Notes under the pieces: model-generated | What the model saw: the letters and a program-made list of their open reading frames with translations, nothing else | What the model was told of the DNA's origin: nothing | Database searches by the model: none | Program-made: the position numbers and the translations under genes | From: Candidatus Schekmanbacteria bacterium | GTDB taxonomy: Bacteria > Schekmanbacteria > GWA2-38-11 > J061 | Reading direction: 5' to 3' | Assembly: GCA_016219965.1 (NCBI GenBank) | Contig: JACRJM010000003.1 | Span: forward strand, 130,299 to 194,298 | DNA: 64,000 nt | Shown here: piece by piece, positions 3,916-24,825 of the stretch | How the letters are laid out: each line of letters starts with the position of its first letter | Numbering within the stretch: the stretch's first letter is position 1

Positions 3916-5541
3916 CTAAGTTTTTTTTCCAGGTTCCCTCCTCCTCATTATTACACATTCCCTGTTTTCTCCTACTTTAACAAGTTTAGACTGTATCAAC
4001 TCATCAAGATCTCTATCAAAGTCCTTTTTTCTGAAGATATAATATTCATCATAATTATTATTTGTATGATATAGCCTGTATGTAAGCTGAAATTTGTGAT
4101 CAATCCTTAATATCCTGCGTTGCGAGTAAAATACGAATGAGGGTTTAAAAAACTTAAAAAAAACTATTTCACTTTTCCCAATAGCAGAACTTTTAAGTGT
4201 AAGAGCTAATTTCTTGTTAGATTTGAATTTTTCAAAAGCATCAACATTTATAACAGCTCCTAGAAAAATAAATACCACGAGAAAAACCTGCATATAAAAT
4301 ATAGCCACTTTTTTATTCTTGTATGTCAGAAAAACTAAAACAATAAACCAGATATTGAGACTTATCAATGTCCATATCAAAGCGGTTAAACCTATTGCGT
4401 CTAAAACAATTACTACTATATTAGGAAAAAATTTAAGGATTATCAAAGCAGATATATCAAAACTTAGAAACAATGCAAAAATGGCATATATTCCCAAGGT
4501 TATTCCTTTATCTTCTCTGCGCTGAAAACAATCTTTCCAGCACTTCCCGGCTATCATAGCAAGAGGTGGATAAATGGGAAGTATATAGTTTGGCAGCTTT
4601 GACTTTGAAAGAGAATAGAAGACAAATATAGCACAAGCCCATGCAATGAGAAATTTAAGTTGCCTTGAGTCTTCGGTCTGATTACTTATACTTTTTGTTG
4701 CCTGAAAAGGCAGAAAAAAAATCCATGGGAAAAAACCACCGATAATTACCGGTATATAGTAAACAATGCTACCGCTTCTTTCATGGACATCTGTAAAATA
4801 CCTCATGATATTTTCATAAACTATATTTTCATACAAAAAACCCGGAGTTTTAATTGAAGAAGCTACGTACCACGGCAGGATTACTAACAGTGTAATCAGT
4901 ATCCCTGTTGGTTTAAAAAAAACTTTTATTGATTCGAATTCTTTGAAAATCAGTATATAAAAAAAAATTATAATTCCAGGGACAATAATTCCCAGAGGTC
5001 CCTTTGACATAAACCCTAATCCAAGTGAGATAAATAATATTACCCGATGTATTTTACTATATGGAGAATATTTCCCAGTTGTATTAATAAATGAAAAAAC
5101 AGAAAGGGTAATAAAAAAAGCAAGAGTCATGTCTGTTACTATTGAGTGAGAAAGCGCAATAAACTCTATACTGGTAAGAAGGATGATAAGGGAAAGTAAT
5201 CCAGTTTCAAAACAGAAAAAATTTTTTCCAAGTGCGAATACAAGATATAGTAATCCGGCTCCAAATAGTGTCGTAACATAACGTGGAGCATAATCAGCCA
5301 TTCCAGTTAAATTAAAGGCAATTGCAGAAAGCCAGAAATAAAGAGGAGGTTTTTTATTATATGCTTCATAGTTTAGATGCGGAGATATGTAATCCCCTGA
5401 TTCAATCATTTCCCTAGCTATCTCCGCATATCTCGCTTCATCAGGGTCCCATAAGTCACGGGATGACAATCCAAAAAAAAGGAGAAATATGGCAAATAAT
5501 ATTGTCCCTGATAGGAAAAGTTTTTTTTGTGAAGACGTCAT
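3916..5541 (-). CDS. GT-C fold glycosyltransferase, ArnT/PMT-like (GT39/GT83)
   Basis: 541 aa polytopic membrane protein. The first-loop motif RDLWDPDEARYAEIAREM (DExRYAE) is the signature of ArnT/PMT undecaprenyl- or dolichyl-phosphate-sugar transferases. Confidence 0.7.
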   Translation of the reverse strand: MTSSQKKLFLSGTILFAIFLLFFGLSSRDLWDPDEARYAEIAREMIESGDYISPHLNYEAYNKKPPLYFWLSAIAFNLTGMADYAPRYVTTLFGAGLLYLVFALGKNFFCFETGLLSLIILLTSIEFIALSHSIVTDMTLAFFITLSVFSFINTTGKYSPYSKIHRVILFISLGLGFMSKGPLGIIVPGIIIFFYILIFKEFESIKVFFKPTGILITLLVILPWYVASSIKTPGFLYENIVYENIMRYFTDVHERSGSIVYYIPVIIGGFFPWIFFLPFQATKSISNQTEDSRQLKFLIAWACAIFVFYSLSKSKLPNYILPIYPPLAMIAGKCWKDCFQRREDKGITLGIYAIFALFLSFDISALIILKFFPNIVVIVLDAIGLTALIWTLISLNIWFIVLVFLTYKNKKVAIFYMQVFLVVFIFLGAVINVDAFEKFKSNKKLALTLKSSAIGKSEIVFFKFFKPSFVFYSQRRILRIDHKFQLTYRLYHTNNNYDEYYIFRKKDFDRDLDELIQSKLVKVGENRECVIMRRREPGKKT

Positions 5542-5939: not shown

Positions 5940-6314
5940 ATGAAGATTATGATAGTAGACGATTCATCGGTTATGCGAAAAATAGTAACACGAACAATCA
6001 GACAAACCGGTTTTGAAATAGAGGAAATAGTTGAAGCATCTGATGGACTGGATGCATTGGAAAAACTGAAATCTTACACAAGCGATTTGATTCTCTGTGA
6101 CGTTAATATGCCAAACATGAATGGGTTAGAATTTGTAGAGAAGGTAAACGCTGAAAAAATCGCACCTGAGAGTGACATTATTATGGTCACGACTGAAGGA
6201 GGAATAGACATCGTAAACAAGGCTGTGGAAAACGGCGCCAAAGGATTCATAATCAAGCCATTTACTCCAGAAGATTTCGTCGCCAAGGTAAAACATTTAT
6301 GCAAGAGGTGGTAA
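5940..6314 (+). CDS. cheY: Chemotaxis response regulator CheY
   Basis: Single REC domain (MIVDDSSVMRK…LILCDVNMPNMNG…KP). AGGAGG RBS upstream. Confidence 0.85.
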   Translation: MKIMIVDDSSVMRKIVTRTIRQTGFEIEEIVEASDGLDALEKLKSYTSDLILCDVNMPNMNGLEFVEKVNAEKIAPESDIIMVTTEGGIDIVNKAVENGAKGFIIKPFTPEDFVAKVKHLCKRW

Positions 6315-6358: not shown

Positions 6359-6838
6359 ATGGAATCAATTATATCGCTTATGTCAGAAACTGCAGTTGAG
6401 GTGCTTAAAAAAATGGCTTTTTTAGATGTAGAACACATAAGGAATGATGAACCCATTTCAAAAGCTATAGAAAATGTCCACATGTGTTCAATGATCATGC
6501 TCGACGGTACGTTAAAAGGCTCTATCGTTTTTCATTGCTCTGATAAACTTGCGAAACAGGTGACATGCGCTCTTTTAGGGGAAGATATGGCAAATGACAT
6601 AGCAGATATGGATATAAAAGACGCAATAGGTGAAGTTACAAATGTAATTGCAGGAAATGTTAAAAACAAGATTTCGAATTTAGGTCATAGCTTTTCTCTT
6701 TCTTCTCCTAAAGTTTTGGAATGGGGAGAATATGTGATCGAACTTAAGACTAAAGCACGCCAGGGGATTATGGAATTTACCTCGGGAAAAGAAACTTTTT
6801 TTATTGAGTTGTTATCAAGTAATGGGTCTCACGATTAG
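6359..6838 (+). CDS. cheX: CheX-type CheY-P phosphatase (CheC/CheX/FliY family)
   Basis: Contains the D-x3-E-x2-N-x21-P active-site motif (DAIGEVTNVIAGN…SSP) in a protein of about 155 aa. Confidence 0.7.
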   Translation: MESIISLMSETAVEVLKKMAFLDVEHIRNDEPISKAIENVHMCSMIMLDGTLKGSIVFHCSDKLAKQVTCALLGEDMANDIADMDIKDAIGEVTNVIAGNVKNKISNLGHSFSLSSPKVLEWGEYVIELKTKARQGIMEFTSGKETFFIELLSSNGSHD

Positions 6839-6851: not shown

Positions 6852-7877
6852 GTGAAAAGTGACATGGCCAATCCTGTTGAGAAAATAAAAGAAACTATTG
6901 ATGAAATCCTTGACTCTGTTGAGAATGAAATAGTTACTATTTTCAATGCATTGTTTGGAAAGCTTGTCAGTTGTTTTCTAGCAGGTGTGTCAGTTACAAC
7001 CGCCAAGGAATTCCTCGATCCACGAAAAGGTAAAAAAAGCTTCCTTATAGATCTTAATACTAATGAAGAAATAAAGGGAGATATCTTTATCTGTCTCGAC
7101 CACAAAGAAGCTTGCTGGGTTTCAGCAATTATGAATGGCCTTGCTGAATCAATGGCAGATGAAAAAGAAAAAAGCGGCCAATTTGATGAAAATGATATTG
7201 ATGCTGTTTCAGAAGTTGGCAATCAATTAGCTGGAAAATTGAATTTTGTCCTCAAGCCTATTGCCAAGAAAAAACTACATTTTATTAAAACCAGGCATTT
7301 TTTGACTGAAGAGATGCAGGGAGAAGACAATAAAATACCTCTTGATGAAGAAGAAACTGTAATTATCCCTAAATTCTCTTTTTCCTCTGAGGGGAAGGAA
7401 ATAGGATTTATTTATGTAATGTTCCCGGTAAACTTTGCTTCCCTGATGGTTGGGATACCTCTCAGTGGCGACACTCAAGAAAAAGATAATGAAAGTGAAT
7501 CTGCTAAATTAAGAAAGATAATCCTCCTTTGCCAGCAAATTGATAGCAAGGAAGAAGCACTTTATAATATGGTTGCAGATAAGTTTTCGGCAAGCTTTAT
7601 TACCTGTAAGCTTAACTCTGCTCTTGAGGAAAACCCAGAAATTAAAGAAGCAGATCTGATTTTCGTCGACTCCTATGATGATCCAAACAGTGGGATAGAC
7701 ATATGTAAACAGCTTATAGCGTTAAAAAGCAGTAAAAAAAAATCAATAATTCTCAGTTCAAAAAATATAACAAAAGATCTTTTGCTCCAGGCTATATCTA
7801 CCGGAATTTGTGACATCATAGTAAAGCCCGCTTCTACAAAAACAATTATGCAGAAAGTACAAGCGAATATAGGGTGA
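6852..7877 (+). CDS. CheC/CheX-like domain fused to a degenerate receiver (pseudo-REC) domain; start uncertain (GTG 6852 or ATG 6864)
   Basis: The N-terminal half contains a D-x3-E-x2-N motif (DAVSEVGNQLAG). The C-terminal roughly 120 aa have REC topology (…DLIFVD…, IILSS, IIVKP) but lack the N-terminal acidic pair, which is replaced by IILLCQQ. Confidence 0.45.
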   Translation: MKSDMANPVEKIKETIDEILDSVENEIVTIFNALFGKLVSCFLAGVSVTTAKEFLDPRKGKKSFLIDLNTNEEIKGDIFICLDHKEACWVSAIMNGLAESMADEKEKSGQFDENDIDAVSEVGNQLAGKLNFVLKPIAKKKLHFIKTRHFLTEEMQGEDNKIPLDEEETVIIPKFSFSSEGKEIGFIYVMFPVNFASLMVGIPLSGDTQEKDNESESAKLRKIILLCQQIDSKEEALYNMVADKFSASFITCKLNSALEENPEIKEADLIFVDSYDDPNSGIDICKQLIALKSSKKKSIILSSKNITKDLLLQAISTGICDIIVKPASTKTIMQKVQANIG

Positions 7878-7881: not shown

Positions 7882-10629
7882 ATGGCATTAAATATAGAAA
7901 AAATAAATGAGATTGTTAATCAGCTTTCAATATCTTTGATTTCTGAAAACGGCAATTTTTTTTCTATTCCGCAAGTTAAAGCAGAAATAATAGAACTTCT
8001 AGAGTTACTCAATGCAGGCACTACCCCTGAGCTGTCAAATATATGCAATGAGATTAACGCAGTTATTCAGAAAGCTTCAGAATGTAAGAGTAATAAAAAT
8101 ATAGGTGATCCGACAAAAAGAATTTCAGAACTATTAATAAGTCTTCAGAATCTGATTCTCTCAACTCCACACCGGTCAGACAGCGATATATCTAAAAAGA
8201 ACACTCAATCATCTGGAGAGCCACATTTTGCCGTTCCAGAACATCAAAAAAAGGATGAAGAGATGCTTAATATACCTGATGACGAAAGAGAAATTTATGG
8301 AGATTTTGTTACAGAGAGTCTTGAACATATCCAACAGATAGAAAAAGGAATATTGGAACTTGAGAACAACAGTGCTGATGCAGAGATAATCAACAGTATG
8401 TTCCGTTGTTTTCATTCCATTAAGGGAAATTCCGGTTTTTTAAATCTTAAAGTGATGAACAATTTATCTCATAAGTGTGAGGGACTCCTTGACAAGCTCA
8501 GAAGCAAAAAAATGAACTATACTGAAGAGATTACAGATATTGTTCTTGAAGCAATTGACATTCTCAAGGGTATGCTCGGTGATATTGGTGCTGCGGTTCG
8601 CGATAAGCAACCGCTTAATTGTCACTATGAAATTGAAACATTTCTACAAAAAATAGAAGATGTTAAAAATCCTATCATTACTAAGGATGTCACTAAACCA
8701 TCAGATGTAAATAAATCTGATTCTGCTGAGATTAAACAACCCCAGGAGGCCACTTGTGATGAATTCAATGTTAACTCTTTAGTTAATAGGGAAGAGGAAG
8801 AGTTTATTCATCTTCCAGAGGACTCTGATATTAGCCTGATTGGTGAATTTATAACAGAAAGCAATGATAATATAGCTGGTGCTGAGGCCGCTCTTCTTTC
8901 TCTTGAAACTCAACCTGACGACATGGAAGCAGTTAACACATGCTTTCGAGCTTTTCATACAATGAAGGGAACTGCCGGTTTTATTGGCATAAAACCTATG
9001 GCAGAATTTGCTCATCACGCTGAATCACTTCTCAGTCGTATCCGTGACCGCAAAATCTCCTATACTCCCGGATATGCAGATCTGGCACTGCGTTCGATAG
9101 ATATGTTCAAGGAATTAATACAATCCCTACAGACTGTCTTAGGAGGAGAAACTGCAAGTAAACCTTCAGGCTACACTGAATTAATTCATGATTTAATGAA
9201 CCCTGAATCTGTCACTGCAAAGAATTCTATGCCAGAGATTGTCACTCCAAGGCTCGGAGATATTCTTGTTGCTGATGGAAAGGCTGACCGGAATGAAGTC
9301 GAAAAGGCTGCGTCATCTAAGAGCGAAGAACCAATAGGAGTAAAATTGGTAAAAAATGGCGCTGCATCCCTTCAGGATGTTGCAGGTGCCATACGTAAAC
9401 AACAATCTACTGCTGCTGGTGACAGCAACATTTCGGATACATCTGTACGAGTCAGGACAGACCGTCTTGACCGTCTCATAGATATGGTGGGTGAGCTTGT
9501 AATATCTCAGTCTATGGTTTCGCAGGATATAAGTGTAGCAGGCAATGGCTATCATGAGTTGTCAAAGAAAATTTCTCATACAGGAAAAATAGTAAGAGAG
9601 TTGCAGGATCTAACTATGTCAATGAGAATGGTGCCTCTTAAACCCACTTTCCAGAAAATGACACGACTCATAAGGGATCTTTCACGTAAGAGCGGAAAGA
9701 TTGTCAATTTCATTACACAGGGTGATGATACCGAGATAGACAGGAATATGGTTGATGTCATTAACGATCCTCTTGTACATATGCTTCGCAATGCTGCGGA
9801 CCATGGTGTTGAGTTGCCGGAAATCAGGGAAAAGAATGGGAAAGCAAAAGAAGGGACTATTTCTCTCTCAGCATACCATTCAGGCGGAAATGTTGTGATT
9901 GAAATTAAGGATGACGGCAAAGGAATTGACAGGGAAAAGGTAATTAAAAAAGCTGTTGCTGCCGGTCTTATTGACCCGGGGAAAAATCTGTCTGACAGCG
10001 AGGTGTTTAACCTTATATTTGAACCAGGCTTTTCTACAGCAGATAAAGTAACGGATATTTCGGGCAGAGGAGTTGGGATGGATGTAGTTAAGCGAGGAGT
10101 AGAGTCATTAAGGGGAAAGATTAATCTGACATCAGTTGCAGGCAAGGGAAGTACTTTTTCCATGTATCTGCCGCTCACAATGGCAATAACTGACGGTATG
10201 CTTGTTAAAGTAGGAAGCGAACGCTATCTCATTCCTACAGTGAATATTTCCATGAGTTTTAGACCTGATGCCAAACTCCTTTTTACGGTTGGTGAAAAAG
10301 GAGAAATTGTAATGCTTCGCGACAATCCTGTTCCAATATTCCGATTGCACAGTCTGTTTGGGATTAAAGGCGCAGTTGAAAATCCTTTAGAAGCATTGCT
10401 TGTTATCATAGATGACGGAAATCAACAGAATGCACTTCTTGTTGATGAATTATTGGGTCAGCATCAGGTTGTGGCAAAACCGCTGGGTAACTGGTTAGGA
10501 CAGATCCCCGGAGTATCTGGTGGCGCAATCCTGGGAGATGGACATGTCGGATTAATTCTTGACTCATCAGATCTTATTGCGGCGGCAAAACAAAATAGTA
10601 CTGCAAGTGATTGCAGATATGCAGCATAG
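7882..10629 (+). CDS. cheA: Chemotaxis histidine kinase CheA with two N-terminal Hpt (P1) domains
   Basis: Two Hpt motifs (HSIKGNSGFL and HTMKGTAGFI). Dimerisation domain (RLDRLIDMVGELVISQSM), HATPase_c (HMLRNAADHG…GRGVGMDVV) and a C-terminal CheW-like domain follow. Confidence 0.9.
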   Translation: MALNIEKINEIVNQLSISLISENGNFFSIPQVKAEIIELLELLNAGTTPELSNICNEINAVIQKASECKSNKNIGDPTKRISELLISLQNLILSTPHRSDSDISKKNTQSSGEPHFAVPEHQKKDEEMLNIPDDEREIYGDFVTESLEHIQQIEKGILELENNSADAEIINSMFRCFHSIKGNSGFLNLKVMNNLSHKCEGLLDKLRSKKMNYTEEITDIVLEAIDILKGMLGDIGAAVRDKQPLNCHYEIETFLQKIEDVKNPIITKDVTKPSDVNKSDSAEIKQPQEATCDEFNVNSLVNREEEEFIHLPEDSDISLIGEFITESNDNIAGAEAALLSLETQPDDMEAVNTCFRAFHTMKGTAGFIGIKPMAEFAHHAESLLSRIRDRKISYTPGYADLALRSIDMFKELIQSLQTVLGGETASKPSGYTELIHDLMNPESVTAKNSMPEIVTPRLGDILVADGKADRNEVEKAASSKSEEPIGVKLVKNGAASLQDVAGAIRKQQSTAAGDSNISDTSVRVRTDRLDRLIDMVGELVISQSMVSQDISVAGNGYHELSKKISHTGKIVRELQDLTMSMRMVPLKPTFQKMTRLIRDLSRKSGKIVNFITQGDDTEIDRNMVDVINDPLVHMLRNAADHGVELPEIREKNGKAKEGTISLSAYHSGGNVVIEIKDDGKGIDREKVIKKAVAAGLIDPGKNLSDSEVFNLIFEPGFSTADKVTDISGRGVGMDVVKRGVESLRGKINLTSVAGKGSTFSMYLPLTMAITDGMLVKVGSERYLIPTVNISMSFRPDAKLLFTVGEKGEIVMLRDNPVPIFRLHSLFGIKGAVENPLEALLVIIDDGNQQNALLVDELLGQHQVVAKPLGNWLGQIPGVSGGAILGDGHVGLILDSSDLIAAAKQNSTASDCRYAA

Positions 10630-10669: not shown

Positions 10670-11182
10670 ATGTTAGGTGGAAATGAAGGGATAAATGAAA
10701 ACCGAGATAAGGGATTTAATTCCGAAAAGGCTGCTGGCAAGTCTGGCGAAACAAAGAAATTTCTCAGCTTTTTTCTTGGAACAGAAGAATACGGAATAGA
10801 CATTGTTAGTGTCCACGAGATCATTGGTGTATTACCCATAACTTCAATTCCATACACTTCAAATTTTATCAAGGGTGTAATTAATCTTCGTGGGAAGATA
10901 ATTCCGGTAATTGACTTAAGGCTCAAGTTTGAAATGAGTGAAGCTGAATATACAGAAGAAACATGCATAATAGTTACCCAGTCGGAAAACTTACAAGTTG
11001 GTGTCATCGTAGACAAAGTATCAGAGGTTCTAGATATTTCACCCTCTCAAATTGAGGATGTGCCATCTTTTGGAATAAGAACAAATATTGATTACCTTTT
11101 AGGCATCTGTAACATCAGGGGAGGAGTCAAACTTTTGCTTGATATAGATAATGTACTTTCAAGCAAGGCAGCTTCAGCATAA
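10670..11182 (+). CDS. cheW: Chemotaxis coupling protein CheW
   Basis: 170 aa with a CheW fold (FLSFFLGTEEYGIDIVSVHEII…NLRGKIIPVIDLR). Confidence 0.85.
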   Translation: MLGGNEGINENRDKGFNSEKAAGKSGETKKFLSFFLGTEEYGIDIVSVHEIIGVLPITSIPYTSNFIKGVINLRGKIIPVIDLRLKFEMSEAEYTEETCIIVTQSENLQVGVIVDKVSEVLDISPSQIEDVPSFGIRTNIDYLLGICNIRGGVKLLLDIDNVLSSKAASA

Positions 11183-11252: not shown

Positions 11253-13736
11253 ATGTTGAATAGAATCAAATCAAGTCTGTCTATTAAAATTTGTACTCTC
11301 GTTGCCAGCGTTTTGACCATAGTGCTCGCGACAACCGGTTATTTCCAGATTAAGGACAAGGAAAGTATGTTTATGAACGACTTAATCGAAGAGTCCTCTA
11401 ACATGACGTCAGTTTTAGATTCATCCCTACATCAGGGAATGATGAAGGCTGATATGGAAGGAATTGACGATGTGTTAAACAAGACAGGCCAGATAAAAAA
11501 AATAAAAAGGGCCTACATACTTTCATCCTCAGGCAAAGTTTTCAAATCTTCAGATAAAACACTGGTTGGGAAAACTGAAGGACAGTCAGCGATTGAAAAG
11601 ATTAAAGGGACAAGGCAGAATTTTTTTGAACTAATGAAAACTTCTGACGGTAATCCTTATGTAATGGGATTAAGCGCAATTTCGACTGAAAAAGGGTGCA
11701 TCGAGTGTCACGCAGAGTTTAAGGAAGGGGAAACAATCGGCTACCTTGGGCTTGATACATGGGCTATAGATAATTTCAAAGATCTTGAGGCGAGCACAAC
11801 AAAGACCGTTCTTTCTTATGCGATTGCCGTTATGCTTCTCCTCGCTACAATAATTTTTATTATCAGGAAGTCTGTAAATCCTATTGTCAATATTTCCAGG
11901 GCCGCCAGCTTAATTTCAAAAGGTGACTTAAATCAGTCAGTAGATTTTCATTCTGATGATGAGGTAGGAGCTCTTGCAAATTCTTTCCGTGAACTCATCG
12001 ATTACATCAAGAAAGTGAGCGATGCAGCAGATCAGTTAAGCAAGGGGAAACTGAAGATTGATATTGAGATGAAAAGTGACAAGGATGAATTAAATAAATC
12101 CTTTCAGCAATTACAGATAACCATGAATAATCTTGTTACAGAAATTGATCAGATGATCCAATGGGCTAAGGATGGAGAACTTCAAAAACGCGGTGATCCA
12201 TCTAAGTTTGAAGGAGGTTATCGCAAATTAATAAAGAGCACAAATGAAATGCTTGATGCGGTAATCGAGCCTGTGAACGACGCCTCCAATGTTCTGGAGC
12301 GAATAGCAGAAAAGGATCTTACGGCGCAGATAACCGGAGACTATAAAGGTGACCATGCTAAGATCAAAAATTCTCTGAACAGAGCTGTTTTCAATCTAAG
12401 CAACGGGCTTGAACAGGTTGCTGTAGGAGCAGACCAGGTTTCATCCGCATCTTCAGAGATAGGAAGCGGAAGCCAGTCGCTGGCTCAGAGTGCGTCTGAA
12501 CAGGCTGGTTCGCTTCAGGAGATATCGAGTAGTTTGCATGAGATAGCATCAATGACAAGACAAAACAGGGAAAATTCCAAAGAGGCAGAAGCCCTTTCTA
12601 GTGCAGCCAAGTCCAGTGCCAATAAGGGTGTAGAAAGCATGAAGCGACTCTCCGATGCCATTAACAAGATTAAGGCATCTTCAGACGAAACTGCAAAGAT
12701 TGTAAAAACCATTGATGAGATAGCATTTCAGACAAATCTTCTTGCCCTAAATGCTGCAGTTGAGGCTGCCAGAGCTGGAGATGCAGGAAAAGGATTTGCC
12801 GTAGTTGCTGAAGAAGTAAGAAATCTTGCAATGAGAAGCGCTGAAGCTGCGAAAAACACTGCTGCCATGATTGAGGGTTCAGTGAAAAAGTCTGAAGATG
12901 GCGTTGTGATCAATAAGGAAGTTTTAGCCAATTTAGAAGAAATAAATGGGAACGTGACTAAAGTCAGTGAGGTTATGTCTGAGATATCTGTCGCATCAGA
13001 GCAGCAAAGTCAGGGGATAGAGCAGCTAAACACTGCTGTGGAGCAGTTAAACCAGGTTACCCAGCATAATGCGTCATATTCAGAGGAATCTGCAAGTGCA
13101 GCACAGGAACTTTCCGGACAGGCATCTGAAATGAAAAATTTAGTTAATAGCTTTAAACTTGGAAAGTTTAGCAACAACGATAGTACTGATATGGAAAATA
13201 ATAGTAGAAGACTACGCACAACAGGGACAAGAACTGTAAGCGCAATGCCGGAACACCGAAAAACAGGAAGCTCTGCCAGCTCATCTGTTGACTTTTCTTC
13301 AGCAAGAACCAAGCACAGACTCTGGATTACAAGACTCAGGTCTTTTTTAGACGGCAAGGAATCGCTTACTGAGCAACAGATTGTCTCACATAAGGACTGT
13401 GACCTTGGAAAATGGATCTATGCGGAAGGCATTAAAAAATATGGAAACATTGCCCAGTTCCAGCAGCTTGAAAAAATACATGAGGATTTTCATTCAAAGA
13501 TAAAGACTGTTAAACAGCATAGAGATTCAGGAGATATTCAGCTTGCTGAACAGGCTTTTGATAAAATGATGCCAATCTCTGAACATGTAATTTCTCTGCT
13601 TAATGATATTGAGCAGAAATTAAAATCTCCCAATTCAAGTACTGTTTCTCAACAGGGAGAGATGGAATCAGATGGTTTAGGAAAAATAGTTCCCATGCGT
13701 AATGATATGGAAAAAGCTTTCTTGCAGTCTTTTTAA
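11253..13736 (+). CDS. Methyl-accepting chemotaxis protein with a periplasmic CxxCH (c-type heme) sensor domain, HAMP repeats and a C-terminal CZB zinc-binding domain
   Basis: TM1 at residues 12-32 and TM2 at about 186-208. The periplasmic domain of about 150 aa contains CIECH. HAMP and MCP signalling domains (…[31 protein letters not shown]…) follow. The C-terminal HRLWITRL…CDLGKWIY…HEDFH matches the CZB Hx3W…CxLGKW…H motif. Confidence 0.85.
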
Positions 13737-13798: not shown

Positions 13799-14650
13799 AT
13801 GAGCAATATTTCCGCAAACGAAACTGCACACAGTATTGCAACTTTTCATCTCAAAGAAGCCGAGTTTAAAAAAATTTGCAGGATCGTATACAGTGTATGC
13901 GGAATAGATCTGCACGAAGGGAAGGAAGAACTGGTAAAATCGCGCCTTTCTAAGCGCCTCAGGGCTTTGAATATAAATAGCTTTGAGAATTATCTTACTT
14001 TTATTGAAAAAGAGCCTTCAAAAAAAGAATTAAATTATATGGTAGATATATTGACTACCAATAAAACATATTTTTTCCGGGAATCTCAGCACTTTGACCT
14101 TCTTAAACAAAAAGTCATTCCAAAACTTGATCATTCAAAAATCAGGTTCTGGAGTGCAGGGTGTTCGTCCGGAGAAGAACCATACACTCTTTCCATTCTT
14201 TTAAGGGAAGAAATACCTGATATTGATAAAATTGATGTAAAAATTCTTGCTACAGATATATCCTCAAGGGTTCTCGAAAAAGCAAATTCAGCAGTTTATG
14301 AAAAAGAAGCCTTCAATGATCTTCCTCAGGCATATTTAAGAAAATATTTCACCAGCGTTGGATCTAACTCGCATCAGTCTTTCCGTGTAAATGAGAACAT
14401 AATGAAAACAGTTTATTTTGCACAGCTAAATCTCATGGAACAGTGGCCCATGGCAGGAAAGTTTGATGTCATATTTTGCAGGAATGTTATGATTTATTTT
14501 GACAGACCTACCAGAGAAAAACTGATTAACCGTTTTTGGGATTACTTAGTTCCCGGAGGATATCTTTTTGTAGGACATTCTGAAAGCCTCACAGGACTTT
14601 CGCATCAATTTGGTTATGTTCAGCCAGCGGTTTATATTAAATCCAATTAA
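13799..14650 (+). CDS. cheR: Chemotaxis protein methyltransferase CheR
   Basis: CheR N-terminal and SAM-methyltransferase domains (RFWSAGCSSGEEPYTLSILL). Confidence 0.85.
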   Translation: MSNISANETAHSIATFHLKEAEFKKICRIVYSVCGIDLHEGKEELVKSRLSKRLRALNINSFENYLTFIEKEPSKKELNYMVDILTTNKTYFFRESQHFDLLKQKVIPKLDHSKIRFWSAGCSSGEEPYTLSILLREEIPDIDKIDVKILATDISSRVLEKANSAVYEKEAFNDLPQAYLRKYFTSVGSNSHQSFRVNENIMKTVYFAQLNLMEQWPMAGKFDVIFCRNVMIYFDRPTREKLINRFWDYLVPGGYLFVGHSESLTGLSHQFGYVQPAVYIKSN

Positions 14651-14672: not shown

Positions 14673-15197
14673 GTGATATATACTGTTGGCATTGCTGATA
14701 TGAAGATTTCGACTCAACATTCTGACATTATAATTACCTATGCTCTTGGAAGTTGTCTTGGAATTACAATTCATGACCCTGTGGCCTGCGTAGGTGCTAT
14801 GCTTCATATCATGCTACCTACTTCTTCAATAGACATACAAAAGGCAGCACAGAATCCCTGCATGTTTGTAGATACAGGAGTGCCCAAACTTTTTAATGAT
14901 TGTTACAAGTTTGGAGCGCGCAAAGAAAGACTTGTCGTGACAGTTGCCGGAGGCGCAAGTCCATTAAGCGTATCCGGGAATGATCATTTTCAGATTGGCA
15001 ACAGGAACTTTATAACATTAAGAAAACTTCTCTGGCATAATGGAGCGCTGCTTAAAGCATATGACGTCGGTGGAACAGTTGCTCGTACCATGTCTCTTGA
15101 GATAGGGACGGGCAAAGTAGTTGTGAAACATAGTGGCGGCGAAACAAAAGTAATTAACATTGACGTCGAAGATTGCAACGTCGGAAGGAGAAATTAA
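14673..15197 (+). CDS. cheD: Chemoreceptor glutamine deamidase CheD
   Basis: Motif ALGSCLGITIHDPVACVGAMLHIMLP; GTG start. Confidence 0.8.
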   Translation: MIYTVGIADMKISTQHSDIIITYALGSCLGITIHDPVACVGAMLHIMLPTSSIDIQKAAQNPCMFVDTGVPKLFNDCYKFGARKERLVVTVAGGASPLSVSGNDHFQIGNRNFITLRKLLWHNGALLKAYDVGGTVARTMSLEIGTGKVVVKHSGGETKVINIDVEDCNVGRRN

Positions 15198-15202
15198 CCT
15201 TT

Positions 15203-15592
15203 ATGCTAAACATACTGATTGTAGACGACAGCGCAGTTATGCGTGCAATGATAATCAAGACATTTAAGCTTTGTGGTATTCCCTTTGGTGAAATAATGGA
15301 AGCTTCAAACGGAAAAGAAGGGATAGATGTTATTGACACCAAGTGGGTTGACCTCATTCTTGCTGATATCAATATGCCGGTTATGAATGGCATAGAGATG
15401 ATAGATAAAATACAAAAAAATCCTCAAACTGCAGATACTCCCATAATAGTGATATCAACGGAAAGCAGCCAACCCAGGATAGAAGCCCTCAAAAACAAGG
15501 GCGTACACTTTGTAAAAAAACCATTTACTCCTGAAATTCTGAGAGAAACCATTACAAATATTATAGGAATAAAATTCAATGGAAAAGATTGA
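15203..15592 (+). CDS. CheY-like single-domain response regulator (second copy)
   Basis: REC domain MLNILIVDDSAVMRA…ILADINMPVMNG…KKP. I start it at the internal ATG 15203, which has a GGAGG RBS, rather than the ORF-track 15173. Confidence 0.8.
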   Translation: MLNILIVDDSAVMRAMIIKTFKLCGIPFGEIMEASNGKEGIDVIDTKWVDLILADINMPVMNGIEMIDKIQKNPQTADTPIIVISTESSQPRIEALKNKGVHFVKKPFTPEILRETITNIIGIKFNGKD

Positions 15593-16049
15593 AAATATAT
15601 TACTGAATGCGGCTACTAATGCTTTTGAACAGTTATGCTTCATGTTTAGTTCTCCTGATGATGAAGATACTGAAAAAAATTTACGTACCTGGGTAGCGTC
15701 GATTGTGAATTTTTCCGGCCCATTTTCTGGTAAATTAATTGTAAGAGCGCACAAAGGGTTGCTTAATGTAATTGCTTCAAACATGCTGGGGGAAGAGGCA
15801 TCAACAGCCAAACAACAGATAGATGCGCTTGGGGAAGTTTCAAATGTCATATGCGGAAGCGTTCTCCCTCAGATTGCCGGAGTAGCAGAGGTTTTTAATC
15901 TTGAAGCTCCGAAAATTCTTCAAAATTCTGAACCTGTATCACCTCAAAATGGAGAAAAAATGGTCTTTGTCAGCATGACTTTGGATGAGGGACGAGTTGA
16001 ATTACAACTTTTCATTAAAGAGGGATTAGAGCTTTTAAAGGAGGTCTAA
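15579..16049 (+). CDS. CheX-type phosphatase (second copy)
   Basis: DALGEVSNVICGS…EAP matches the D-x3-E-x2-N-x21-P motif. Overlaps the preceding cheY by 14 nt. Confidence 0.7.
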   Translation: MEKIENILLNAATNAFEQLCFMFSSPDDEDTEKNLRTWVASIVNFSGPFSGKLIVRAHKGLLNVIASNMLGEEASTAKQQIDALGEVSNVICGSVLPQIAGVAEVFNLEAPKILQNSEPVSPQNGEKMVFVSMTLDEGRVELQLFIKEGLELLKEV

Positions 16050-16050
16050 T

Positions 16051-17112
16051 GTGATCCGTGTACTGGTCGTAGACGATTCAGCGGTTGTAAGGAAAGTATT
16101 GACTGAAGAACTTTCCAAATATGAAGGGATTGAAGTTGTCGGAAGTGCAATAGATCCATATATTGCTCGTGAAAAAATCATCAGCCTTCGTCCTGATGTC
16201 ATAACCCTTGATTTGGAAATGCCAAGGATGGATGGCTTATCGTTTCTTTCAAAGTTAATGAAATTTTATCCATTACCTGTCATAGTTGTAAGTTCTCTTA
16301 CACCTGAAAACAGCGCTACCGCGATTAAGGCTCTTGAACTTGGAGCAATTGATGTAATATGTAAACCTGGTTCTGCTTATTCCATACCCAATGTATCTCA
16401 TCGTTTAGTAACTGCCATACGTGCTGCCGCAACTGCCAAAGTTGTCAAAATGCAGGATGTTAGCGAGAGCCAATCTTCTGTTGCATCGATAAGCGGATTT
16501 CAGCTTCAAACTACACATAGAATTATAGCTATTGGAGCATCAACTGGAGGAACAAAGGCAATAGAAGCTGTTCTGACTAAATTGCCTCCTACAACGCCAG
16601 GTATAGTTATAGTGCAACACATGCCTGAATATTTTACCGCAGGATTCGCAGAAAGACTTAACCAGATATGCAGAATGGAGGTAAGGGAGGCCAAGAACAA
16701 TGACCCTGTTGTACCGGGCGTTGTTCTGATTGCACCGGGTAATTACCATATGGTTTTGGAAAAATCAGGTGCTCGTTATTTCGTAAAGATAAAAGATGGC
16801 CCCTATGTCCACTATCAGCGTCCAAGCGTGGATGTACTGTTCCATTCTGTTGCAGCTAATGCCGGAAGAAATGCAGTCGGCGCCATTTTAACAGGAATGG
16901 GGGCTGATGGAGCTCAGGGACTTTTGAAAATGAGAGAAAACGGAGCACATACTATTGCTCAAGATGAACAATCATGTGTTGTCTTTGGAATGCCAAAAGA
17001 AGCTATAAATCTTGGGGCAGCTGATGAAATAGTTCCACTGCAGGACGTAGCACAGGCATTACTAAATGCCCTGGTTGATAACGATAATATAAGACAGGTT
17101 AAGACAGCCTGA
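16051..17112 (+). CDS. cheB: Chemotaxis response regulator protein-glutamate methylesterase CheB
   Basis: REC domain plus CheB methylesterase domain (IAIGASTGGTKAIEAVL…GMGADG). GTG start with AAAGGAGG RBS. Confidence 0.85.
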   Translation: MIRVLVVDDSAVVRKVLTEELSKYEGIEVVGSAIDPYIAREKIISLRPDVITLDLEMPRMDGLSFLSKLMKFYPLPVIVVSSLTPENSATAIKALELGAIDVICKPGSAYSIPNVSHRLVTAIRAAATAKVVKMQDVSESQSSVASISGFQLQTTHRIIAIGASTGGTKAIEAVLTKLPPTTPGIVIVQHMPEYFTAGFAERLNQICRMEVREAKNNDPVVPGVVLIAPGNYHMVLEKSGARYFVKIKDGPYVHYQRPSVDVLFHSVAANAGRNAVGAILTGMGADGAQGLLKMRENGAHTIAQDEQSCVVFGMPKEAINLGAADEIVPLQDVAQALLNALVDNDNIRQVKTA

Positions 17113-17190: not shown

Positions 17191-18045
17191 ATGAGCAGAC
17201 TTGATGAAATCATGGAGAAAGTAGATAAGTTACCTCCTTTTTCGAATGTTGTTGGCAGGGCAGCAGCCTTATTCAGCAACCCTGAAATAGAGCCAGAAGA
17301 AATAGTAGATGTAATTAAATTTGAACCTGCCATTACTGCAAACGTCCTGAAAATATGTAATTCTGCTTATTATGGCCTTATGAGAAAAGTAAGTTCCCTC
17401 AAGGAAGCAGCAACATATCTCGGGACCGAAGAACTCCTGAAAATTGCACTGGCAAACGGCATGGCTGATGTATTGAAAGACAATATAAAGGGCTATGATC
17501 TTAAAGAAGGGGAACTCTTTAAACATTCTATCGGATGTGCAATAGCATCCCAGTTGTTATCAAAAAAACTTTTTGTTCAGAATTCGAATATACTTTTTAC
17601 AGGATCTCTTTTGCATGATATCGGCAAGCTCATCTTAAGTGAATTTGTAAATGAGGAATACAATAATATACATAGGATGGTTGTTGAAAAACAATGTTCA
17701 TTCATAGAGGCTGAACGAGAGATACTTAACACAGATCATGCGGAGATAGGTGGTTTTTTAGCTGATGAGTGGAAATTTCCTGAGGAGCTCAAGGCAATAA
17801 TAAAATATCATCATGAGCCTGCAAAAGGCCCTGAATCGCAGCAACAGAATATCGAAATAGTTCATGTAAGCGATCTGTTGTGTCTTATATCCGGGATAGG
17901 GATAGGATCTGATGGTATGGCTTACAGGGCATCGCTCCAGCAAATTAACATTATAAAGCTTATTGACAGTAGCCTTGAATCACTTATATGCGACCTTATT
18001 ACAGAACTTGAGAAAGTGAGTACTTCATACAATCTCAGCAATTGA
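17191..18045 (+). CDS. HDOD domain protein
   Basis: HD-related output domain (…NVLKICNSAYYGLMRKVSSLKEAATYLG…HDIGKLIL). Last gene of the che operon. Confidence 0.7.
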   Translation: MSRLDEIMEKVDKLPPFSNVVGRAAALFSNPEIEPEEIVDVIKFEPAITANVLKICNSAYYGLMRKVSSLKEAATYLGTEELLKIALANGMADVLKDNIKGYDLKEGELFKHSIGCAIASQLLSKKLFVQNSNILFTGSLLHDIGKLILSEFVNEEYNNIHRMVVEKQCSFIEAEREILNTDHAEIGGFLADEWKFPEELKAIIKYHHEPAKGPESQQQNIEIVHVSDLLCLISGIGIGSDGMAYRASLQQINIIKLIDSSLESLICDLITELEKVSTSYNLSN

Positions 18046-18063: not shown

Positions 18064-18951
18064 TTACTCTGGAAATCCCTCTACTTCTCTGCAGAACTCG
18101 TTGGCTCTTAGTCCCTGGGTCCTTACTAAATTTATCATATCAATTCTTTTTTGCGTAAACCATGCTTCACGCAAAGGCCTGTCGGATATGTTTGAGACCG
18201 GATCCACCCATGCTCCAGCTTCACAAGGACAAAGTATAATATTCCCGTCAGTGGTAATTGACATTTCGTTTTCTATGAAATAACAACTTCTGGAATCAGG
18301 TACGCAGGGAATTGCCTCTTTGTCTAAATCACCGCCTCTTAAACGATATGAAGGGAACTGTACCTTTTTTATCCCCAGCTCGTTAAAGAACTTTTTAAAT
18401 TCCTCCCATCCTTCTGAAACCGTAATGGGAAGCTGTATTTTGGAAATCCAGACCTCTGCCGTTGAACCGGTCTTATGTTTGATATCCATAAACCTTTCTA
18501 CATTCTCCAATACCACACTTAACGGCAGGCCTCTTATGTATTTATATAACTCGTGGTTTAACGTATCAATGGAAAAAACTATTATGTCTGTATTACTTTC
18601 GAGGAGCCTGTAAGCTCTTTCCTCGTTGAGCAGATAACCTGTTGTTGTTATCCAGTTTGCAATCCCTTTGCTATTAGCCCTTTTCATAAAGCCGTATATC
18701 CTGTCGTCACAAAGGGGATCGTTAATCCACTCCCAGTTTATAAAACACTCCCAGTCAATCTCGTCCAGGATCTTATCGATCATCCAGTCAGGCATCAGCT
18801 TGTTCTTGCGTGTTTGAAGAACCTTGCTTCTGGGGCACATTATGCAGTTAGCCGGACACTGAGTTGTCGTCTCAATGGAAAAGTATGCCGGAAGATGAAG
18901 TCCTTCCCATACGTCCTGACCTGGGTAACGGAGAATAGCGTTCTCAGCCAA
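18064..18951 (-). CDS. Radical SAM enzyme with C-terminal SPASM/twitch domain
   Basis: CPANCIMCP (Cx3Cx2C) near the N-terminus. The C-terminal Cys cluster is CPCEAGAWVD…. Confidence 0.7.
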   Translation of the reverse strand: MAENAILRYPGQDVWEGLHLPAYFSIETTTQCPANCIMCPRSKVLQTRKNKLMPDWMIDKILDEIDWECFINWEWINDPLCDDRIYGFMKRANSKGIANWITTTGYLLNEERAYRLLESNTDIIVFSIDTLNHELYKYIRGLPLSVVLENVERFMDIKHKTGSTAEVWISKIQLPITVSEGWEEFKKFFNELGIKKVQFPSYRLRGGDLDKEAIPCVPDSRSCYFIENEMSITTDGNIILCPCEAGAWVDPVSNISDRPLREAWFTQKRIDMINLVRTQGLRANEFCREVEGFPE

Positions 18952-21850: not shown

Positions 21851-21883
21851 TATTTATAAAAAATTATTTTATCTGCGCGACGC

Positions 21884-23005
21884 TCACAGGAAGCATACGT
21901 GTTCTTTGGGTCTTGTGATATTCCATAATACCTGATTAAATGTGTTGCACCTGCACAATGGGATACAGTCATCAAAATCTATTTTTTCGCAGGCCTCTTT
22001 CCGTTCTTCCGAATTCCAAACCTCTGCAAGACTTTTTTCCTTGAGATCCCCGATACAATACTTTTCATAACCTCTGAGATGGCAGCAGATGTACATCTTG
22101 CCGGTTGCGGCAATAACCGTAGCAAACTGGTGGCCATAGCATTCCTTGTAATTCCTTCCATAATCTTTCGAGTTCATCATGTCGTATTTATGTTTTGAAT
22201 GGAGGACATCAAAGGCATTGCCGCTGTATTTTATACATTTCGCAATTTCCCTCGTAACATCTTCCCAGTTGTATTCAAAATTTCCGCCGCGATGTATCTG
22301 CATTGGACGAAACTGGATATAGTCAACTCCCATATCTCTGCAAAGGATAGTTGCTTTTTCCAAATCACCGCTTGTCTCCCTGCTGGTCAGGTATCCTACT
22401 CCCACTGTGGCGTTGCTTTGTAATTCCTTTTTCATTCTTGTCAGCATTCGTATATTCTCTACAACCTTGTTAAAAGCATTTCCGTCCCTTCCATGCGTTT
22501 TCAAGAATACTTCAGGGGTTGCAGCATCAAGAGAAACCCTTATCCATGTGCAATTTTTCAGAAGCTTCTCTGCTGACTCTTCTTTTAGAAGCTGGCCATT
22601 TGTGATAAAACCGACATCTATACCTCTTGATTTTGCACGCTCGACTATATCAGGAGTATCAGGATGGCATAATGGTTCTCCGCCGCCGGTAAAAATCAAT
22701 CCCCTTGCTCCTTCTTCGCCTAATTGATCTATAATTGATTCTGCCCTTTCCCTTGAAAGGGAATTACTGTCTGTAAGCTGGTAATAACTTACAACGCACT
22801 CCGGGCACTTGTGATTGCATACATTTGTCATATCTATTTCAACAGTAATAGGTGGAGGATTATCTCCATCTATCCATGCGCTGACCCTGTCCAAATGTTG
22901 CAGAATTTTCTCAGAACTGAACTGTTTTACATCATTAAGCTTTTCCTTAAGGTCGGGGATAAATTCTATGATGTTTTCTTTTTTTGGTGCTGCAGCGCCC
23001 TTCAT
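21884..23005 (-). CDS. Radical SAM enzyme with SPASM domain (first gene of the operon)
   Basis: CNHKCPECV (Cx3Cx2C) with a C-terminal Cys-rich SPASM region. I start it at the internal ATG (MKGAAAPKK), which has a perfect AAAGGAGG RBS 6 nt upstream. The ORF track extends to 23056. Confidence 0.7.
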   Translation of the reverse strand: MKGAAAPKKENIIEFIPDLKEKLNDVKQFSSEKILQHLDRVSAWIDGDNPPPITVEIDMTNVCNHKCPECVVSYYQLTDSNSLSRERAESIIDQLGEEGARGLIFTGGGEPLCHPDTPDIVERAKSRGIDVGFITNGQLLKEESAEKLLKNCTWIRVSLDAATPEVFLKTHGRDGNAFNKVVENIRMLTRMKKELQSNATVGVGYLTSRETSGDLEKATILCRDMGVDYIQFRPMQIHRGGNFEYNWEDVTREIAKCIKYSGNAFDVLHSKHKYDMMNSKDYGRNYKECYGHQFATVIAATGKMYICCHLRGYEKYCIGDLKEKSLAEVWNSEERKEACEKIDFDDCIPLCRCNTFNQVLWNITRPKEHVCFL

Positions 23006-23057
23006 AAAAAATCCTCCTTTTAATAAATAAAAATGCTCATAGATAAAAAATACCAAG

Positions 23058-23072
23058 CCTCTTTAAGCAATA
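23058..23072 (-). promoter_or_regulatory. Sigma-54 (-24/-12) promoter for the radical-SAM operon
   Basis: The minus strand reads TGGCAG-gatta-TTGCT, an almost perfect TGGCAC-N5-TTGCW. It sits about 40 nt upstream of the RBS/ATG at 23005. Confidence 0.5.
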
Positions 23073-23703: not shown

Positions 23704-23765
23704 ATATTATCTGTAAATAGCTAAAAAAACACAAAGTCAATATTTTTTTTAAAATATTTATTATT

Positions 23766-24740: not shown

Positions 24741-24825
24741 TTTCTGCTGCGTTTTCCCTTTGAGAAGGAAAGATAGTGCAGATGTAAGAATCCGTTCATT
24801 GTCTCTTAAGAATTTTGAAAATATC

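What the first reader, a model, noticed from the sequence alone, without database searches (positions are those of the whole stretch)
6852..7877. Novel chemotaxis component: CheC/CheX-like phosphatase motif fused to a pseudo-receiver domain
It sits between cheX and cheA inside the operon. The N-terminal half retains D-x3-E-x2-N (DAVSEVGN). The C-terminal 120 aa fold like a REC domain with a candidate phospho-Asp (DLIFVD), Ser and Lys positions, but lack the Mg-binding acidic pair. I do not know of such a fusion. It could act as a phosphorylation-regulated CheY-P phosphatase or as a CheY-P sink.
Basis: seen in the sequence. Interest (0 to 1): 0.55.

Follow-up and report, generated by a model that had tools for sequence, protein, structure and literature searches.

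The report
CheC-like phosphatase fused to degenerate receiver
The gene encodes a real but uncharacterised chemotaxis protein, a CheC/FliY-type phosphatase domain joined to a crippled receiver domain, and it belongs to a conserved, so far unnamed family that always sits next to cheY and cheX.

Summary
ORF 6852/6864-7877 (+) lies between cheX and cheA. It has a ~196-aa N-terminal CheC/FliY-fold domain with DAVSEVGN on the second catalytic helix, a disordered linker, and a C-terminal (βα)5 receiver fold. The receiver keeps Asp269, Ser299 and Lys321 but has Gln224-Gln225 where the Mg-binding acidic pair should be.

Evidence:
- The family profile matches FliY (4HYN) at E=2.3e-13.
- AlphaFold reaches pLDDT 88. 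Foldseek gives FliY/CheC/FliM (TM 0.76-0.85) and REC (about 0.8).

It is not a one-off. I collected about 150 relatives, from Desulfobulbales, Desulfuromonadales and a second Schekmanbacteria-like contig. Where a source names them, it is mostly "hypothetical protein".
- D-x3-E-x2-N is essentially invariant (223 of 233 domains).
- The first CheC site is lost.
- Many relatives carry 2-3 tandem CheC-like domains.
- 122 of 134 receivers lack the phospho-Asp.
- 47 of 53 loci show cheY-cheX(n)-gene, often beside flagellar genes.

Most likely it is an extra CheY-P phosphatase whose pseudo-receiver docks or regulates rather than accepts phosphate.

"Phosphorylation-regulated" or "sink" is poorly supported.

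Verdict: a new architectural variant of CheC-type phosphatases. Interest is moderate.

The parts
6852..7877 (+). The ORF: 341 aa from GTG 6852, or 337 aa from ATG 6864 (protein P0001, used for residue numbering). Stop codon 7875-7877.
6864..7451 (+). CheC/FliY-type domain, residues 1-196. Secondary structure: a1, b1-b3, a2, a3, a1', b1'-b3', a2'.
   Evidence: Profile vs PDB: FliY 4HYN 2.3e-13, CheC 1XKR 1e-6. AF2 secondary structure. Foldseek TM 0.76-0.85 to FliY and FliM middle domain. hhalign to the neighbouring CheX family: probability 95%.
6891..6914 (+). Degenerate first site on helix a1: ETIDEILD (E-x3-E-x2-D), in the position of the first CheC/FliY D-x3-E-x2-N site.
   Evidence: Aligned by hand to the FliY EIGN site using the alignment printed. 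E..N at this site occurs in only 3 of 233 family domains.
7200..7223 (+). Predicted active-site motif DAVSEVGN (D113-x3-E117-x2-N120) on helix a1'.
   Evidence: Across 233 family domains: D 227, E 231, N 223. It lies in model helix 109-130 and aligns with FliY LSAVGEAMN and CheC ASALREIGN.
7452..7511 (+). Acidic, low-complexity linker, residues 197-216.
   Evidence: pLDDT below 50 for residues 203-213. Lowest conservation of any segment, 1.0 bit.
7512..7874 (+). Degenerate receiver (REC) domain with a (beta-alpha)5 fold, residues 217-337.
   Evidence: Pfam Response_reg 28.1 bits, cut-off 30.2. Family profile vs REC structures down to 5e-28. Foldseek TM about 0.8 to REC domains.
7533..7538 (+). 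Q224-Q225 at the positions of the Mg-binding acidic pair (CheY D12, D13).
   Evidence: The closest relative, P0002, has E-E here.
7668..7670 (+). D269, equivalent to the phospho-acceptor Asp57 of CheY.
   Evidence: Asp is kept at this position in only 12 of 134 family members.
7758..7760 (+). S299, equivalent to CheY T87.
7824..7829 (+). K321-P322, equivalent to CheY K109-P110.
5940..6314 (+). cheY, first gene of the conserved cheY-cheX-gene triad.
   Evidence: Pfam Response_reg 7.5e-29. Synteny.
6359..6838 (+). cheX, directly upstream of the ORF.
   Evidence: Pfam CheX 4.5e-19. cheX lies directly upstream in 48 of 53 related loci.
7882..10629 (+). cheA with two Hpt domains, then dimerisation, ATPase and CheW-like domains. 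No REC domain.
14673..15197 (+). cheD. No canonical cheC is present in the window.
15173..16049 (+). Second cheY-cheX pair.
17191..18045 (+). HDOD/HD gene. In relatives it is part of the recurring HDOD-cheY-cheX-gene module.

Best explanation
The gene encodes an accessory component of a flagellar-type chemosensory pathway. It belongs to an unnamed family of two-part proteins.

Part 1 is a CheC/FliY-fold domain in which only the second catalytic helix (a1') keeps D-x3-E-x2-N. By analogy with CheC, FliY and CheX, this helix would insert its Glu and Asn into the active site of phospho-CheY and speed up hydrolysis. That step is inferred, not shown.

Part 2 is a receiver-fold domain that has lost, or is losing, its phosphorylation chemistry. 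In this protein Gln224-Gln225 replace the Mg-binding pair, so it is most likely not phosphorylated efficiently. It more likely works as a protein-protein module. Candidate roles are docking the phosphatase to a partner, dimerising it, or gating the catalytic helix as a CheY look-alike. Candidate partners are the kinase/array, the motor, or the neighbouring CheX.

The protein works alongside the CheY and CheX encoded directly upstream. Together they would raise or shape CheY-P turnover.

Separate confidences:
- Domain identities and family membership: about 0.95.
- CheY-P phosphatase or CheY-P binding role: about 0.6-0.65.
- Receiver is a non-phosphorylated docking or regulatory module in this protein: about 0.55.
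For: Fold and homology:
- The N-domain profile matches FliY 4HYN over its full length at E=2.3e-13, and CheC at 1e-6.
- The AF2 model has pLDDT 87.9.
- Foldseek matches FliY/CheC/FliM at E about 1e-11 and REC domains at TM about 0.8.
- hhalign to the operon's own CheX family gives 95% probability.

Selection on the catalytic motif:
- D, E and N are present in 227, 231 and 223 of 233 CheC-like domains. This includes every copy in 2- and 3-domain relatives.
- The first-site E..N is present in only 3 of 233.
- Helices a2 and a1' are the most conserved parts of the domain.

The receiver is degenerate:
- This protein has QQ-D-S-K at the five catalytic positions.
- Across the family, 122 of 134 lack the acceptor Asp, and K109 is most often Thr (80 of 134) and T87 Gly (98 of 134).
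- Even so, b3-a3, b4, the b4-a4 loop, a4 and b5 are the best-conserved REC segments (2.1-3.0 bits, against about 1.1 for a1, b2 and a2). That pattern implies a conserved interaction surface.

Context:
- cheY-cheX(n)-gene occurs in 47 of 53 loci with enough upstream DNA, with a median gap of 50 nt.
- It holds for relatives at only about 20% identity.
- In Desulfobacterota the gene abuts flgBC-fliEFG genes.
- In Desulfuromonas the cluster was reported only in the flagellated strains.
Against: - There is no biochemical evidence for any member.
- On its own, this protein is below the Pfam thresholds for CheX, CheC and REC.
- The conserved Pro that follows the motif in CheC/FliY/CheX (N-x21/22-P) is not at that spacing. 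The neighbouring CheX proteins do have it, N95...P117.
- FliM middle domains share the fold without being enzymes.
- This protein and its closest relative still have Asp, Ser and Lys, and the relative has Glu-Glu at the acidic pair. Some phosphorylation in this clade therefore cannot be excluded.
- pTM 0.59 and the disordered linker give no support for a fixed contact between the two domains.
Confidence: 0.55

Rival explanations
1. Self-clearing phosphate sink, or phospho-regulated phosphatase. CheA-P phosphorylates D269 of the receiver. The attached CheC-like domain then hydrolyses it in cis, or its activity toward CheY-P is switched by that phosphorylation.
For: - D269, S299 and K321-P322 are retained.
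- The closest relative has Glu-Glu at the acidic pair.
- Four family members have a fully canonical DD-D-S/T-K receiver, and 12 of 134 keep the Asp.
- The gene lies next to cheA.
Against: - Gln-Gln sits at the two metal-binding positions in this protein.
- From established CheY biochemistry, D13 together with D57 binds the Mg2+ needed for phosphotransfer. This is my own knowledge and was not tested here.
- 122 of 134 family members have Val, Ile or another residue at the acceptor position, yet they keep the same synteny and an invariant CheC motif. The conserved function of the family therefore cannot depend on receiver phosphorylation.
Confidence: 0.2
2. Functional CheC for the operon's CheD. 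The CheC-like domain binds CheD and titrates it off the receptors, as in the Bacillus CheC-CheD-CheY-P adaptation loop. The fused pseudo-receiver stands in for bound CheY-P.
For: - cheD is in the operon, and no canonical cheC is in the window.
- By my reading of the locus maps, cheD lies in the same cluster in roughly two thirds of the related loci that hold enough flanking DNA. I did not count this by script.
- By sequence and fold the domain is CheC/FliY-type rather than CheX-type.
- In B. subtilis, CheY-P strengthens CheC-CheD binding (abstract of PMC3513319).
Against: - Many relatives have no cheD within 8-10 kb (L004, L005, L007, L008, L014, L017, L018, L035).
- Helix a2', the CheD-binding helix in CheC by my own knowledge of structure 2F9Z, is poorly conserved here at 1.4 bits.
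- This reading is not exclusive of phosphatase activity.
Confidence: 0.15
3. Non-catalytic scaffold. A FliM-like CheC-fold domain plus a pseudo-receiver would only bind partners such as motor or array components, with no phosphatase activity.
For: - FliM middle domains are among the best structural matches, TM 0.82-0.85.
- The post-motif Pro spacing of active CheC-type enzymes is absent.
- The clusters already encode one to three CheX proteins.
Against: Near-invariance of exactly the catalytic D, E and N in 223-231 of 233 domains, including tandem copies, is hard to explain without a role at the CheY-P active site.
Confidence: 0.1

Closest known systems
FliY middle domain and CheC (class II and class I CheC-type CheY-P phosphatases; PDB 4HYN, 1XKR/2F9Z)
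   Same: - Full-length pseudo-twofold a/b fold of about 200 aa.
- D/S-x3-E-x2-N on helix a1'.
- Best sequence and structure matches.
- A chemotaxis operon that contains cheD.
   Different: - The first active site on a1 is lost.
- No FliN/SpoA domain and no N-terminal CheY-binding peptide was detected.
- A receiver-fold domain is fused at the C-terminus.
- The Pro after the motif is at a different spacing.
- Relatives carry 2-3 tandem copies.
CheX (class III; PDB 1XKO, 3HZH), including the two CheX proteins of this operon
   Same: - A single active site of the same motif.
- Homologous over b2-b3-a2-a1' (hhalign probability 95%).
- Always encoded side by side.
   Different: - CheX is about 150 aa.
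- Its structural match is poorer, TM 0.58-0.65.
- The N-domain profile does not reach CheX structures by sequence.
- CheX has no receiver domain.
"CheC-like" response regulators (REC plus a CheC-like domain), for example Psyr_0886 / PSPTO1039
   Same: They combine a receiver domain with a CheC-superfamily domain in one polypeptide (PMC2222644).
   Different: - From my own knowledge, not verified here, those are REC at the N-terminus followed by the CheC-like output, with a canonical phosphorylatable receiver.
- Here the order is reversed, the receiver is degenerate, and the gene is locked into a cheY-cheX operon.
Aspartate-less or pseudo-receiver domains (ALR domains, PMC4395418; FrzS, KaiA and PRR-type pseudo-receivers)
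   Same: A receiver fold kept for protein-protein function without phosphorylation. 122 of 134 family members lack the Asp.
   Different: - This particular protein still has the Asp and lacks only the acidic pair.
- No CheC-linked example is mentioned in that survey.

Membership tests
CheC-type phosphatase superfamily (CheC/FliY/CheX, Pfam clan CL0355) | a/b fold built from two a-b3-a halves | tested here: met
   AF2 element order. Foldseek to 4HYN/3QTA/1XKR at E 1e-11 to 4e-10. Profile E=2.3e-13 to 4HYN over 188 columns.
CheC-type phosphatase superfamily (CheC/FliY/CheX, Pfam clan CL0355) | D/S-x3-E-x2-N on an active-site helix | tested here: met
   DAVSEVGN at residues 113-120. The motif is invariant or nearly so across 233 family domains.
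CheC-type phosphatase superfamily (CheC/FliY/CheX, Pfam clan CL0355) | Conserved Pro about 22 residues after the Asn (N-x22-P) | tested here: not met
   In P0001 the Pro is at N+12, and in the family consensus at N+15. The PP of CheC and FliY aligns as an insertion. The neighbouring CheX proteins do have N95...P117.
CheC-type phosphatase superfamily (CheC/FliY/CheX, Pfam clan CL0355) | Passes the Pfam gathering score for CheX (27 bits) or CheC (22 bits) | tested here: not met
   14.5 and 13.1 bits for this protein. Several multi-domain relatives do pass.
CheC-type phosphatase superfamily (CheC/FliY/CheX, Pfam clan CL0355) | Accelerates CheY-P dephosphorylation | not testable with these tools
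   Needs an enzyme assay.
Class I CheC | Two active sites (a1 and a1') in a stand-alone protein of about 200 aa | tested here: not met
   The first site is E-x3-E-x2-D here, and E..N occurs there in only 3 of 233 family domains. A REC domain is fused.
Class I CheC | Co-occurs with and binds CheD | tested here: inconclusive
   cheD is in this operon and in many related clusters, but it is absent near others. Binding is not testable here.
Class II FliY | C-terminal FliN/SpoA domain and N-terminal CheY-binding peptide | tested here: not met
   Pfam finds no FliN-type domain. The C-terminus is a REC fold.
Class III CheX | About 150 aa, a single site, CheX-specific topology | tested here: not met
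   The domain is 196 aa with both halves present. TM to CheX is 0.58-0.65 against 0.76-0.85 for FliY and FliM. There is no CheX hit in the profile search of the PDB.
Receiver (REC) domain, Pfam PF00072 | (beta-alpha)5 fold and sequence similarity | tested here: met
   AF2 elements b1-a5. TM about 0.8 to REC structures. The family profile reaches 5e-28. The single sequence scores 28.1 bits, just under the cut-off of 30.2.
Receiver (REC) domain, Pfam PF00072 | Acidic pair (CheY D12/D13) for Mg2+ binding | tested here: not met
   Q224-Q225.
Receiver (REC) domain, Pfam PF00072 | Phospho-acceptor Asp, Thr/Ser and Lys (D57, T87, K109) | tested here: met
   D269, S299, K321. Whether D269 is phosphorylated cannot be tested here.
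"CheC-like" response regulators (REC plus CheC-like domain) | N-terminal canonical REC followed by a CheC-like output domain | tested here: not met
   Here the CheC-like domain comes first and the REC second, and the REC is degenerate. The comparator family is known only from a table in PMC2222644 and from my memory; I did not examine its sequences.
Aspartate-less / pseudo-receiver domains | Receiver fold lacking the acceptor Asp | tested here: not met
   This protein keeps the Asp. 122 of 134 relatives lack it. The label "pseudo-receiver" here rests on the missing acidic pair only.

The most novel reading that the evidence does not exclude
This could be a fourth architectural class of CheC-type CheY-P phosphatases. 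It would have one to three tandem single-site CheC-fold domains. Activity or location would be set by a built-in CheY look-alike, a receiver domain that has given up phosphorylation. That domain would tether the enzyme to a CheY-binding partner (CheA, the motor switch or CheX), or would occupy the catalytic helix as a pseudo-substrate. This would give Desulfobacterota, Schekmanbacteria and relatives a way to shape CheY-P in space or time that differs from CheZ-CheA(short), CheC-CheD and FliY.
Probability: 0.3. Interest if true: 0.6.

Novelty: new variant of a known kind. Interest (0 to 1): 0.45.

Why it matters
From my own knowledge of the field, three solutions are textbook for how cells localise and control CheY-P dephosphorylation: CheZ at the array, CheC with CheD, and FliY at the motor, with CheX acting as a free dimer.

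A conserved fourth architecture would add a testable case of a receiver domain re-used as a targeting or gating module. Here the catalytic domain is tied to a decayed receiver, can be repeated up to three times, and is always encoded next to CheY and CheX.

The family also gives names to about 150 proteins that are mostly called "hypothetical". It defines a recognisable chemosensory gene module, (HDOD)-cheY-cheX-gene, in sulfate- and metal-reducing bacteria. One paper flagged the Desulfuromonas version of this cluster as unusual without resolving it (PMC8235581).

The effect is on one specialised field. It does not overturn any principle.

Tried and rejected
Searches that gave little or failed:
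- The word-indexed homology searches found almost nothing beyond the protein itself. Receiver-domain hits swamped the candidate lists. Only the exhaustive HMMER search exposed the family.
- Single-sequence AlphaFold was useless, pLDDT 42. The family alignment fixed that.
- Alignment A1 was too divergent for the locus scan. A Desulfobacterota sub-alignment worked.
- Three key papers are not held, so whether they mention this architecture is unchecked: Galperin 2006, Muff & Ordal 2008 and Wuichet & Zhulin 2010.
- I had an off-by-one error in CheY numbering and corrected it.

Ideas considered and rejected:
- CheX-type domain: rejected, because both halves are present and FliY/CheC match better.
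- FliY: rejected, because there is no FliN domain.
- General link to a multi-Hpt CheA: rejected, because only the closest relative shares it.
- Chance motif: rejected, because of family invariance.

Full report
**Observation**

The ORF at 6852-7877 (+) is intact. NCBI's gene call for the same sequence starts at ATG 6864. It gives a 337-aa "hypothetical protein" of a Candidatus Schekmanbacteria MAG (P0001), and I number residues from that start.

The gene sits in a tightly packed + strand operon:
- cheY 5940-6314
- cheX 6359-6838
- this gene
- cheA 7882-10629, with two Hpt domains
- cheW 10670-11182
- an MCP 11253-13736, with HAMP and CZB domains
- cheR 13799-14650
- cheD 14673-15197
- cheY 15173-15592
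- cheX 15579-16049
- cheB 16051-17112
- an HDOD gene 17191-18045

DAVSEVGN is at residues 113-120 (nt 7200-7223). In the C-terminal third, Q224-Q225, D269, S299 and K321-P322 align with CheY D12/D13, D57, T87 and K109-P110.

**Is it more than chance?**

Alone, the sequence is borderline. Pfam gives Response_reg 28.1 bits (cut-off 30.2), CheX 14.5 bits and CheC 13.1 bits. NCBIfam has no specific model.

An exhaustive HMMER search of 1.84 billion representative proteins found 112 relatives at E<=1e-3. One is 44% identical, and many are full-length matches of about 330 aa at about 20% identity.

The evidence from those relatives:
- In a 22-sequence alignment, D113 and E117 are invariant and N120 is nearly so.
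- A profile of the N-terminal 200 aa hits the FliY CheC-like domain (4HYN) at E=2.3e-13 over its whole length, and T. maritima CheC at 1e-6.
- The whole-protein profile hits receiver structures down to 5e-28.
- AlphaFold2 on the alignment gives pLDDT 87.9. It shows two well-folded domains and a disordered linker at 203-213. Without the alignment the model was useless.
- Foldseek against the PDB ranks FliY, archaeal and Thermotoga CheC, and FliM middle domains first (E 1e-11 to 1e-9, target TM 0.65-0.85). CheX follows (TM 0.58-0.65). Receiver domains then match the C-terminal part (TM about 0.8).
- Profile-profile comparison with the CheX proteins encoded next to family members gives 95% probability over b2-b3-a2-a1'.

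The N-domain is therefore a full-size CheC/FliY-type member of the CheC superfamily, not a CheX-type one. The C-domain is a genuine receiver fold.

**The family**

A scan of GTDB species genomes with a Desulfobacterota sub-alignment returned 56 loci. They come from Desulfobulbales and Desulfuromonadales, including Desulfofustis glycolicus DSM 9705, Desulfopila, Desulfuromonas, Malonomonas and Geopsychrobacteraceae.

With the HMMER hits I assembled 163 non-identical sequences. Of these, 151 have at least one near-full-length CheC-like domain and 134 have both domains. At the looser domain threshold, 154 proteins have a CheC-like domain: 77 have one, 65 have two and 12 have three.

Across 233 CheC-like domains, D, E and N of the second-site motif are present in 227, 231 and 223. 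This holds in every position of the tandem arrays. E..N at the first site (helix a1) occurs in only 3. In this protein the first site reads E-x3-E-x2-D.

The Pro that follows the motif at N+21/22 in CheC, FliY and the neighbouring CheX proteins is not at that spacing here.

The receiver is mostly dead:
- Only 12 of 134 keep Asp at the acceptor position. Val or Ile is usual.
- T87 is usually Gly, and K109 is usually Thr.
- Only 4 members have the full canonical quintet.

The window's protein (QQ-D-S-K) and its closest relative (EE-D-S-K) are intermediate.

Despite this decay, the best-conserved receiver segments are b3-a3, b4, the b4-a4 loop, a4 and b5 (2.1-3.0 bits). Helix a1, strand b2 and helix a2 are variable at about 1.1 bits. 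A surface around the former active site and the a4-b5 face is therefore under selection. From my own knowledge, CheY uses that a4-b5 face to bind FliM, CheZ and CheA-P2, and CheX approaches the active-site face.

**Genomic context**

Of 53 non-identical family genes with at least 1.3 kb of upstream DNA, 48 have cheX directly upstream (median gap 50 nt). Forty-seven show cheY-cheX(1-3)-gene.

The triad holds for very distant members, including those with a canonical receiver.

A larger module recurs in Desulfuromonadales, for example in the complete genome of Geoalkalibacter subterraneus: cheA-(cheW)-(mcp)-cheR-cheB-cheD-HDOD-cheY-(cheX)-cheY-cheX-cheX-gene. The window holds the same gene set in a different order.

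In several Desulfobacterota the gene abuts flgB/C-fliE/F/G and a sigma-54 activator. This includes the five loci that lack an adjacent cheY-cheX. A comparative paper on Desulfuromonas noted this cluster as a "unique type" found only in the flagellated strains (PMC8235581).

A two-Hpt CheA is shared only with the closest relative. Other relatives do not have it.

**Annotation and literature**

Where a source gives a name, it is "hypothetical protein", or occasionally JGI's "CheY-specific phosphatase CheX" or "CheY-like chemotaxis protein".

Full-text searches found no description of a natural CheC/X-REC fusion of this order. They also found no paper linking a pseudo-receiver to a CheY-P phosphatase.

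Response regulators with a CheC-like domain are catalogued in Pseudomonas syringae. From my own memory of Galperin's census, not checked here, these have REC first.

Three reviews that might mention the family could not be read.

**Mechanism**

Shown by the analysis:
- The folds of both domains.
- The intact second-site motif and its strong conservation.
- Loss of the first site.
- Loss of receiver chemistry across the family, and of the acidic pair in this protein.
- The fixed partnership with cheY and cheX.
- The association with flagellar genes in relatives.

Inferred: helix a1' acts on CheY-P as in CheC, FliY and CheX. The receiver-like domain acts as a docking, dimerising or gating module and not as a phospho-acceptor. 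I put about 0.6-0.65 on the first inference and about 0.55 on the second for this particular protein.

It cannot be the family's conserved function.

A CheD-partner role, as a CheC substitute, is a compatible rival at about 0.15. It is suggested by cheD in the operon and the absence of any canonical cheC in the window. It is weakened by the relatives that have no cheD nearby and by poor conservation of helix a2'.

A purely structural, FliM-like role (about 0.1) is disfavoured by the invariance of the catalytic triplet.

**Verdict**

The protein is best described as a new architectural variant of the CheC-type phosphatases: a single-site CheC-fold domain, sometimes repeated in tandem in relatives, followed by a C-terminal degenerate receiver. 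It belongs to a conserved but unnamed family.

Interest is moderate at 0.45. It is a concrete, testable addition for chemotaxis specialists, not a new principle.

Noticed in passing
window 7882-10629: CheA has two Hpt domains but no C-terminal CheY-like domain. A survey of CheA architectures reports that more than 90% of multi-Hpt CheAs also carry one (PMC10542144). The closest relative's CheA is the same (L001).
   Followed up: partly
window 17191-18045; also L062 6661-7533, L066 7115-8023, L067 7009-7905: An HDOD/HD-domain gene is a constant member of this chemosensory cluster. In relatives it usually lies directly before the cheY-cheX-gene triad. Its role in chemotaxis is unexplained.
   Followed up: partly
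L005 10001-12529 (P0007); L062 10001-11986 (P0003): Relatives carry two or three tandem CheC-like domains, each with an intact D-x3-E-x2-N, before one pseudo-receiver. Their clusters also encode up to three separate CheX proteins. That is up to five phosphatase-type domains in one locus.
   Followed up: partly
window 11253-13736: The operon's 827-aa chemoreceptor has two HAMP-type domains and a C-terminal CZB (zinc-binding) domain.
   Followed up: no
window 14673-15197 and 15173-15592: The cheD ORF and the second cheY ORF overlap by 25 nt if the cheY TTG start is used. An in-frame ATG (MLNILIVDD...) 30 nt downstream would remove the overlap and is probably the true start.
   Followed up: no
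window 3916-5541 (-), 18064-25731 (-), 28526-33272: The che operon is embedded among PMT-family glycosyltransferases, GT2/GT4 glycosyltransferases, a polysaccharide deacetylase and radical-SAM/SPASM and B12-radical-SAM-GT2 fusion genes. No flagellar genes were seen among the ORFs I scanned, unlike the Desulfobacterota loci.
   Followed up: no
window 25870-28476: A hybrid histidine kinase with CHASE4-PAS-HisKA-HATPase-REC domains lies about 8 kb downstream of the operon.
   Followed up: no
L035 310-6717 and 9090-11096; L005 1-7233 and 12618-14724: In Desulfobulbia-type relatives the family gene is flanked by flgB/C-fliE/F/G on one side. On the other side are a sigma-54 activator and a cNMP-binding protein. 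This arrangement is conserved.
   Followed up: partly
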